Notes under the pieces: generated by a model
The model's input: only the letters and a program-made list of their open reading frames with translations
What the model was told of the DNA's origin: nothing
Databases searched by the model: none
Shown: piece after piece, positions 41,604 to 41,645 of the stretch
Layout of the letters: each line of letters begins with the position of its first letter
Numbering within the stretch: the stretch's first letter is position 1
Assembly: GCA_030390025.1 (NCBI GenBank)
Contig: JASTWF010000341.1
Coordinates: 312,001-376,000, forward strand
Length of the DNA: 64,000 bases
Direction: 5' to 3'
Origin: Squalus acanthias
Taxonomy: Eukaryota
Program-made: the position numbers and the translations under genes

Positions 41604-41645
41604 TCACCTGAGGAAGGAGCAATCGATAGCTCCGAAAGCTTGTGA
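41604..41645 (+). ncRNA. Minimal type I hammerhead ribozyme motif
   Basis: TCAC-CTGAGGA-A-GGAGC(aatcgata)GCTCC-GAAA-GC-TT-GTGA: stem I, CUGANGA, stem II, GAAA, palindromic AGCU in place of helix III, UH site. Confidence 0.8.

What the first reader, a model, noticed from the sequence alone, without database searches (positions are those of the whole stretch)
41604..41645. Minimal hammerhead ribozymes with covariation across Penelope families
Seen: three variants keep CUGANGA and GAAA..UH while the stems differ yet pair. Stem I: TCAC/GTGA, TTAC/GTAA, AGTT/AACT. Stem II: GGAGC/GCTCC, GGGGC/GCTCC, AGGTC/GACCT. Helix III is replaced by palindromic AGCU or ACGU. There are five intact motifs plus a decayed one at 30468-30499. 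Known: Penelope terminal repeats carry minimal type I hammerheads thought to cleave as dimers. Inference: structure under selection, probably catalytic.
Basis: partly seen in the sequence, partly recalled or inferred. Interest (0 to 1): 0.75.

Follow-up and report, generated by a model that had tools for sequence, protein, structure and literature searches.

The report
Hammerhead ribozymes heading Penelope transcripts
These are tiny hammerhead RNA motifs, predicted to cut themselves, of a kind already known from Penelope-type jumping genes; the ends of their many genomic copies suggest that the motif likely forms the very start of the element's RNA and that this RNA is likely copied back into DNA uncut.

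Summary
Observation confirmed: five minimal hammerhead motifs (0.04 expected by chance) and one decayed copy. They are three distinct sequences in three Penelope-like (PLE) insertions; two pairs are inverted arms of one insertion each. This class is published (PMC4209133). The genome holds 181,684 core matches against 23,405 for the control. Covariation cannot be shown from three variants. In a sample found without using the core, all six recurrent family A stem II variants keep five pairs, stems I and II each show one two-sided change, and one-off mutations break pairs. Catalysis is untested. Copy 5' ends avoid the predicted cut (6 of 286 arms) and pile up 20-44 nt upstream (105 of 286), about 30 nt behind a TATA-like box. 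The motif therefore likely heads the transcript, and templates are likely uncut, as in vitro for an anole PLE (PMC11167929). A lineage with a U4C core change still reached at least 3,481 copies. The scan noted this start-site reading before, on this genome and on others. Verdict: new member of a known kind, with a testable mechanistic inference.

The parts
41604..41645 (+). Minimal type I hammerhead, family A variant A1; predicted cut after 41641
37869..37910 (-). Identical A1 hammerhead in the inverted arm of the same insertion
63738..63775 (+). Minimal hammerhead, family A variant A2; predicted cut after 63771
62079..62116 (-). Identical A2 hammerhead in the inverted arm of the same insertion
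44099..44135 (-). Minimal hammerhead, family B; predicted cut at 44103
30468..30499 (-). Decayed family B hammerhead (stem II 3' strand and UH damaged)
37819..41736 (.). PLE insertion 1: inverted 5'-truncated arm (about 37819-39265, -) plus forward arm (about 39263-41736, +) with a frameshifted RT-GIY-YIG ORF ending at 41288
37805..37818 (+). 14 bp target-site duplication, left copy (right copy 41737-41750)
41569..41577 (+). TATA-like box, starting 32 nt before the inferred transcript start
   Evidence: function inferred
41601..41601 (+). Inferred +1 (A of an initiator-like motif), 7 nt before the CUGANGA box
   Evidence: inferred
41699..41735 (+). 37 nt 'tail', on one arm only; ends at the ATG that opens the ORF in near-full-length copy L084
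61990..63821 (.). PLE insertion 2: head-to-head arms, tail on the minus arm (62025-61989), 13 bp target duplication 61977-61989 / 63822-63834
44412..45188 (-). Family B PLE 3' fragment with GIY-YIG domain (PF01541, E 1.1e-4, above cut-off)
44159..44164 (-). TATA-like TTAAAT, 29 nt before the inferred family B +1 at 44135
   Evidence: function inferred

Best explanation
The motifs are minimal hammerheads in the terminal repeats of two Penelope-like retrotransposon families, and they likely form the first 35-40 nt of the capped element RNA, which is likely reverse-transcribed uncut. Shown: motif, position in the repeat, copy numbers, stem conservation among recurrent variants, and where copies end. 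Inferred: Pol II starts about 30 nt behind a TATA-like box at the 5' strand of stem I. The element's RT starts at one of two sites about 57 and 96 nt 3' of the predicted cut (no tail, or tail). When it starts in the 5' repeat it runs off the RNA end after 100-140 nt, which leaves the very many short solo or head-to-head copies. When it starts in the 3' repeat it gives long copies such as those in the window. Cleavage would need a second RNA to complete helix III, or the PLE protein. It would remove the capped leader ahead of the AUG, so it likely acts as a slow switch that retires or decaps the RNA, not as the step that makes the template.
For: PLE context: RT (PF00078) and GIY-YIG hits, target duplications, one-sided tail (exactly one tail in 40 of 43 head-to-head pairs), and near-full-length copy L084 with hammerheads 3,136 bp apart. 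Structure: six recurrent family A stem II variants all keep 5 pairs, including C-G to U-A through U.G; stem I has C-G to U-A through U.G; loop II has 20 alleles and N7 four; 26 of 27 singleton stem variants break a pair. Copy ends: A 57 of 138 and B 48 of 148 arms end 20-44 nt upstream of the cut, against 2 and 4 within -5..+4. The loss per nt there is 0.023 and 0.018, against 0.0015 and 0.0028 at the cut and 0.005 and 0.0035 further up. 89 of these 105 ends are confirmed inversion or target-duplication junctions. TATA-like motif in a fixed window in 23 of 25 (A) and 46 of 50 (B) distinct long arms. Genome-wide, 14,116 copies reach the inferred +1, 9,405 also carry the next upstream probe and 8,678 the one after. 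Only 195 copies have a purine directly before the cut-side sequence, among roughly 55,000 (estimate). A G precedes 7 of 10 family A ends at +1 against 17 of 71 other ends (p 0.006), as copying of a cap would give. In vitro, an anole PLE uses unprocessed RNA, starts RT at two internal sites and cleaves only with protein (PMC11167929).
Against: No RNA 5' end was observed: the runs laid were contigs only. The pile-up is broad (about 25 nt) and the exact +1 accounts for only part of it (937 non-templated neighbours among 14,116). 80 of the 105 ends are inversion junctions, where self-complementary hammerhead segments offer microhomology. The extra G is absent in family B (0 of 4) and can come from the G-rich opposite arm; C was the commonest base (51 of 100 listed). 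Part of the 33% genome-wide drop may be other subfamilies. The two arms of one insertion are not independent (per locus: A 31 of 85 against 1, B 39 of 124 against 3). In D. virilis the start lies 46 nt before a 75 nt intron that ends at helix I (PMC2377424, PMC4209133), and in the anole element the ORF starts inside the ribozyme (PMC11167929), so this layout is not universal. The sample is from contig C1 only.
Confidence: 0.62

Rival explanations
1. Published model: hammerheads in tandem repeats cut as dimers, release a unit-length RNA, and this is ligated to a circle that serves as RT template.
For: Helix III palindromes are strictly self-complementary and have no recurrent change other than CpG decay. 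Direct tandem copies exist (L084). A religated circle would also let cDNA cross the cut site. Proposed in PMC4209133 (Discussion).
Against: A circle has no end, so it does not predict the pile-up of ends at the 5' edge of the motif. Hardly any copy starts at the cut. A U4C lineage amplified. Core mutants do not affect insertion in vitro (PMC11167929).
Confidence: 0.15
2. The pile-up comes from DNA-level joining or RT release at the folded motif (microhomology between opposite arms, cDNA hairpin), not from a transcript start.
For: 80 of 105 ends in the peak are inversion junctions. Junctions at stem II and at the palindromes are visible. Self-priming at palindromes was proposed for rotifer PLEs (PMC3846280, passages).
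Against: Nine target-duplication-confirmed, non-inverted copies end in the same window. It does not explain the TATA-like box at about -30 in two distant families or the G before +1. RT pauses are expected on entering a hairpin, at its 3' side (general knowledge).
Confidence: 0.15
3. The fold is kept as a binding or RNA-dimerisation signal for the PLE protein, and cleavage is vestigial in these families.
For: U4C core lineage of at least 3,481 copies with several loop variants. Both arms of inverted insertions cover the same sequence, which could need two RNAs. Low activity in vitro (PMC4209133); 1 of 9 Xenopus dimer elements cleaved (bioRxiv 10.64898/2026.07.22.740005, passage).
Against: All other catalytic positions are invariant among recurrent variants of two distant families. 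U4C lowers but does not abolish function in a viroid (PMC3088659, passage). The anole motif does cleave with protein (PMC11167929).
Confidence: 0.08

Closest known systems
[quoted passage not shown]
   Same: Type I, no helix III, palindromic 15.2-16.2, extra nucleotide between 9 and 10.1, short stem I, position in the repeat, mostly solo copies, families with compensatory changes.
   Different: About 158,000 excess core matches here against 4,000-9,000 reported for coelacanth and Xenopus (different descriptors). Family B opens stem II with A-U or G.U, not G10.1-C11.1. A U4C lineage. Sharks do not appear in the parts read.
PAc, Poseidon of Anolis carolinensis (Frangieh et al. 2024, PMC11167929; parts 1-2 of 4 read)
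   Same: RT plus C-terminal GIY-YIG, two RT start sites that bound a tail, uncut RNA as template, no RNA ends found at the cut.
   Different: In PAc the ORF starts within the ribozyme and the tail lies in the ORF. In family A here the ATG sits at the tail end, about 94 nt after the cut, so the whole motif is 5' leader.
Drosophila virilis Penelope (Schostak et al. 2008, PMC2377424; passages) and Adineta vaga Penelope (PMC3846280; passages)
   Same: Promoter inside the pLTR; A. vaga has a TATA box and a TCACT initiator-like motif, inverted pLTR, tail and target duplications.
   Different: The D. virilis promoter is TATA-less with an intron before helix I. The passages read do not link the start site to the hammerhead.
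Animal non-LTR retrozymes (bioRxiv 10.64898/2026.07.22.740005; part 1 of 5 and passages)
   Same: Type I hammerhead related to PLE pLTRs; present in one chondrichthyan sampled.
   Different: Retrozymes are non-coding direct tandem arrays; these are coding PLE fragments, solo or head-to-head.

Membership tests
Minimal type I hammerhead | CUGANGA and GAAA boxes with UH at the cut | tested here: met
Minimal type I hammerhead | Stems I and II pair and vary without losing pairing | tested here: met
   all 6 recurrent A stem II variants pair; the outer stem I pair is open in two recurrent variants (10 loci); family B shows only a wobble change
Minimal type I hammerhead | Palindromic 4 nt in place of helix III | tested here: met
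Minimal type I hammerhead | Active dimer fold is favoured | tested here: inconclusive
   cofolding gave other dimers; the family B monomer prefers another fold (-9.5 against -5.9 kcal/mol)
Minimal type I hammerhead | Self-cleavage at the predicted site | not testable with these tools
   no raw reads available
Minimal type I hammerhead | Match to an Rfam hammerhead model | tested here: inconclusive
   no hit at E<=1; a motif without helix III may not fit these models
EN+ Penelope-like element | Single ORF with RT and C-terminal GIY-YIG | tested here: met
   L084 848 aa ORF, PF00078 E 2e-9; PF01541 on the family B fragment; families A and B 34% identical over the C-terminal part, E 5e-27
EN+ Penelope-like element | Direct or inverted pLTRs, 30-40 bp tail on one end, target duplication | tested here: met
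   definition from PMC8557442 and PMC3846280 passages
Penelope/Poseidon clade | RT phylogeny; no Zn-finger linker | not tested
   no tree was built
Non-LTR retrozyme | Non-coding direct tandem units, each with a hammerhead | tested here: not met
   window copies are coding fragments, solo or head-to-head

The most novel reading that the evidence does not exclude
In these vertebrate Penelope families the hammerhead is the capped 5' leader of the mRNA and works as a dimer- or protein-gated self-decapping switch. Uncut RNA is translated and copied, cutting retires it, and run-off copies of this leader account for the more than 150,000 solo ribozymes in the genome. A lineage that weakened the switch (U4C) spread anyway.
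Probability: 0.35. Interest if true: 0.65.

Novelty: new member of a known kind. Interest (0 to 1): 0.38.

Why it matters
The motif class is known, but what PLE hammerheads do is called unclear in PMC8557442. Here the copies record template ends in large numbers. If those ends are transcript starts, the ribozyme does not make the template but sits on the cap, which changes the model from 'cut and circularise' to 'leader switch'. It also explains why most such motifs are solo. One CAGE library and a core-mutant transposition assay would test it.

Tried and rejected
Rfam scan: no hammerhead hit; the MIR1858 and isrG hits at about 62826-63028 lie on the inverted-repeat junction and are below the gathering scores. 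The loose pattern alone is weak in the window (31 overlapping matches; 1 of 100 shuffles reached that), so stems were required. RNA evidence: 24 runs listed, all contigs; 4 were laid and showed no molecule ends, no circle joint and no splice joint, which is uninformative. The first truncation analysis was confounded by inverted arms matching each other and was redone with non-inverted references. Run-off at the cut site was tested and rejected for this genome. A spliced template at the CAG before the family B motif was considered; no shared upstream exon is visible among ends near it (by eye). Cofolding did not give the canonical dimer. Two identical CTGACGA..GAAA hits (L041, L064) lack stem I and are not hammerheads. 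Lunse et al. (PMC5785218) is not held; I saw only its title and a review's sentence on it. Paper searches for Penelope + hammerhead + transcription start site + TATA gave 0 papers, and shark + Penelope + hammerhead ribozyme gave 1 review that I did not read. Subscription papers and supplements were not seen and may hold shark examples.

Full report
Observation. A scan that requires both core boxes, stem II, stem I and UH finds five motifs in the window, against a mean of 0.04 in 200 shuffles. Coordinates, stems, palindromes and predicted cuts are as reported. The five are three sequences. 37910-37869 and 41604-41645 lie in identical arms of one head-to-head insertion with a 14 bp target duplication; 62116-62079 and 63738-63775 lie in another with 13 bp. 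The site near 30468-30499 is a worn family B end.

Context. Each intact motif lies about 250-320 nt after the stop of an RT/GIY-YIG ORF fragment. A near-full-length relative, L084, has an inverted truncated arm, a 141 bp 5' repeat that starts 17 nt before the core, an ATG at the end of the tail, an 848 aa RT ORF and a second repeat. Among family A head-to-head pairs, 40 of 43 carry the tail on exactly one arm and none on both. This matches the PLE anatomy in PMC8557442 and PMC3846280 (passages). Families A and B are distant: 34% protein identity and no significant UTR similarity. The host looks like a cartilaginous fish; this is recalled from repeat types and stated in an earlier scan note, and was not tested.

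Copy number. The 3.71 Gb genome has 181,684 core matches against 23,405 for the reversed control. Exact downstream tags give 98,558 (A) and 74,482 (B) hits, with 0 for the controls.

Sample. To avoid selecting for an intact core, arms were collected by the downstream tags in loci L031-L150 and L163-L262, all on contig C1. These cover the family A tags listed to 3.05 Mb and the family B tags to about 3.95 Mb, plus subsamples picked by flanking letters (30 + 30 loci and 40 of the 70 further B places). L001-L030 (best BLAST hits) and L151-L162 (U4C search) served only as references. This gave 138 A and 148 B arms.

Covariation. Among 102 A arms that span the motif, recurrent stem II variants were GGAGC/GCTCC (48 loci), GGGGC/GCTCC (11), GGAGC/GTTCC (6), GGAGT/ACTCC (4), GGAGT/GCTCC (2) and GGAGC/GCTTC (2); all keep five pairs. 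Stem I was TCAC/GTGA (47), TTAC/GTAA (13) and TTAC/GTGA (3), with the outer pair open in two variants (7 and 3 loci). Loop II had 20 alleles and N7 four. Family B (98 parsed, 3 unparsed) shows an A-U to G.U change (53 and 22 loci), CpG decay, and three rare pair-breaking stem I variants (2-3 loci each). Singleton stem variants broke a pair in 26 of 27 cases, some of them misparsed indels. So structure is selected in the source lineages, and inserted copies drift. Two-sided changes number only two, so the evidence is moderate. The one recurrent non-CpG core change is U4C, with at least 3,481 copies and several loop variants. U4C is a known natural variant that lowers activity in vitro (PMC3088659, passage).

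Where copies end. If cut RNA were the template, cDNA begun 57-96 nt downstream would run off at the cut. It does not: 2 of 138 A arms and 4 of 148 B arms end within -5..+4. Instead 57 and 48 arms end 20-44 nt upstream, with 4.7 to 15 times the loss per nt of neighbouring stretches. Of these 105 ends, 80 are inversion junctions, 9 have a target duplication and 16 are unresolved. Genome-wide only 195 copies have a purine just before the cut-side sequence, and about a third of the 100 listed are point changes, not ends (counted by eye). The denominator is roughly 55,000 (78 of 138 arms times 98,558). The mode in family A is 7 nt before the core (10 arms; 8 of 19 non-long ends in the commonest subfamily), at the A of an initiator-like motif (consensus recalled). 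In family B ends cluster 3-5 nt before the core and at the 5' edge of stem II. A TATA-like motif starts 37-45 nt (A, 23 of 25 distinct long arms) or 33-37 nt (B, 46 of 50) before the core and almost nowhere else in the 100 nt upstream, about 30 nt before those ends. For the window's own subfamily group, counts fall from 14,116 to 9,405 across the first upstream probe and only to 8,678 across the next. A non-templated G precedes 7 of 10 A ends at +1, and G outnumbers A 36 to 13 in the first 100 of 937 genome hits, with C at 51 (counted by eye; test). This fits copying of a cap but is confounded by the G-rich opposite arm and is not seen in B.

Mechanism. Most likely the motif is the 5' leader of a Pol II transcript, and uncut RNA is the template. 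RT starts at either border of the tail; starts in the 5' repeat give short run-off copies, and priming on both target strands gives head-to-head arms. Cleavage needs a partner RNA or the protein and would remove the cap. The internal starts, the uncut template and the protein dependence were shown in vitro for the anole element (PMC11167929); their transfer to this genome, the start site and the switch role are inferences. Rivals are the published cut-and-circularise model, a microhomology origin of the pile-up, and a non-catalytic role. No RNA end could be observed.

Novelty. Minimal PLE hammerheads with palindromic helix III and family-level compensatory changes are described in PMC4209133. 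I found no paper linking them to a TATA/initiator start, within a library that lacks most subscription papers. After I had reached this reading, the scan's index showed the same idea on another piece of this genome and in other genomes, and one genome where copies are said to start at the cut. These are unchecked AI notes and add no evidence. Verdict: real, known class, interest 0.38.

Noticed in passing
G000 genome-wide; L151-L162: Family A lineage with a U4C core change (CCGACGA), at least 3,481 copies, several loop II variants and a two-sided stem II change; not present in the window.
   Followed up: partly
window 41658-41716 (+) and 62065-62008 (-): A predicted 8-9 bp hairpin stem joins the sequence after the ribozyme to the tail and encloses the no-tail end point; a candidate for the RT start structure.
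   Followed up: partly
window 41616-41633: Loop II of variant A1 holds a second palindrome (AUCGAU); cofolding pairs two copies through it and stem II.
   Followed up: partly
window 44164-44132 (-) and family B loci: The pyrimidine run and CAG before the family B motif also look like a 3' splice site at the 5' strand of stem I, where the D. virilis intron ends (PMC4209133).
   Followed up: partly
family B loci: The ACGU palindrome holds a CpG that decays to CA or TG in 15 of about 90 loci, so copies lose the dimer signal quickly.
   Followed up: partly
L057 (G000:C1:889251-889465): Two family A ends of different subfamilies face each other tail to tail about 70 bp apart; possibly insertion next to a prior copy.
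   Followed up: no
window 59300-59700: GC-rich stretch ending in a near-perfect hairpin at 59628-59686 (Rfam mir-6644 hit far below its cut-off); looks like the end of a repeat.
   Followed up: no
window 8660-9169 (+): 169 aa open frame that resembles a Harbinger-type transposase by recall; no Pfam hit at E 0.01.
   Followed up: partly
window 4350-7140, 12100-13750, 18800-20300, 47600-57100, 60266-61390: Many decayed non-LTR RT fragments (PF00078 hits), in both orientations.
   Followed up: no
window 42980-43050 (+): Non-repetitive-looking stretch ending in a strong splice-donor-like CAG/GTAAGT at about 43040-43048; possible host exon.
   Followed up: no
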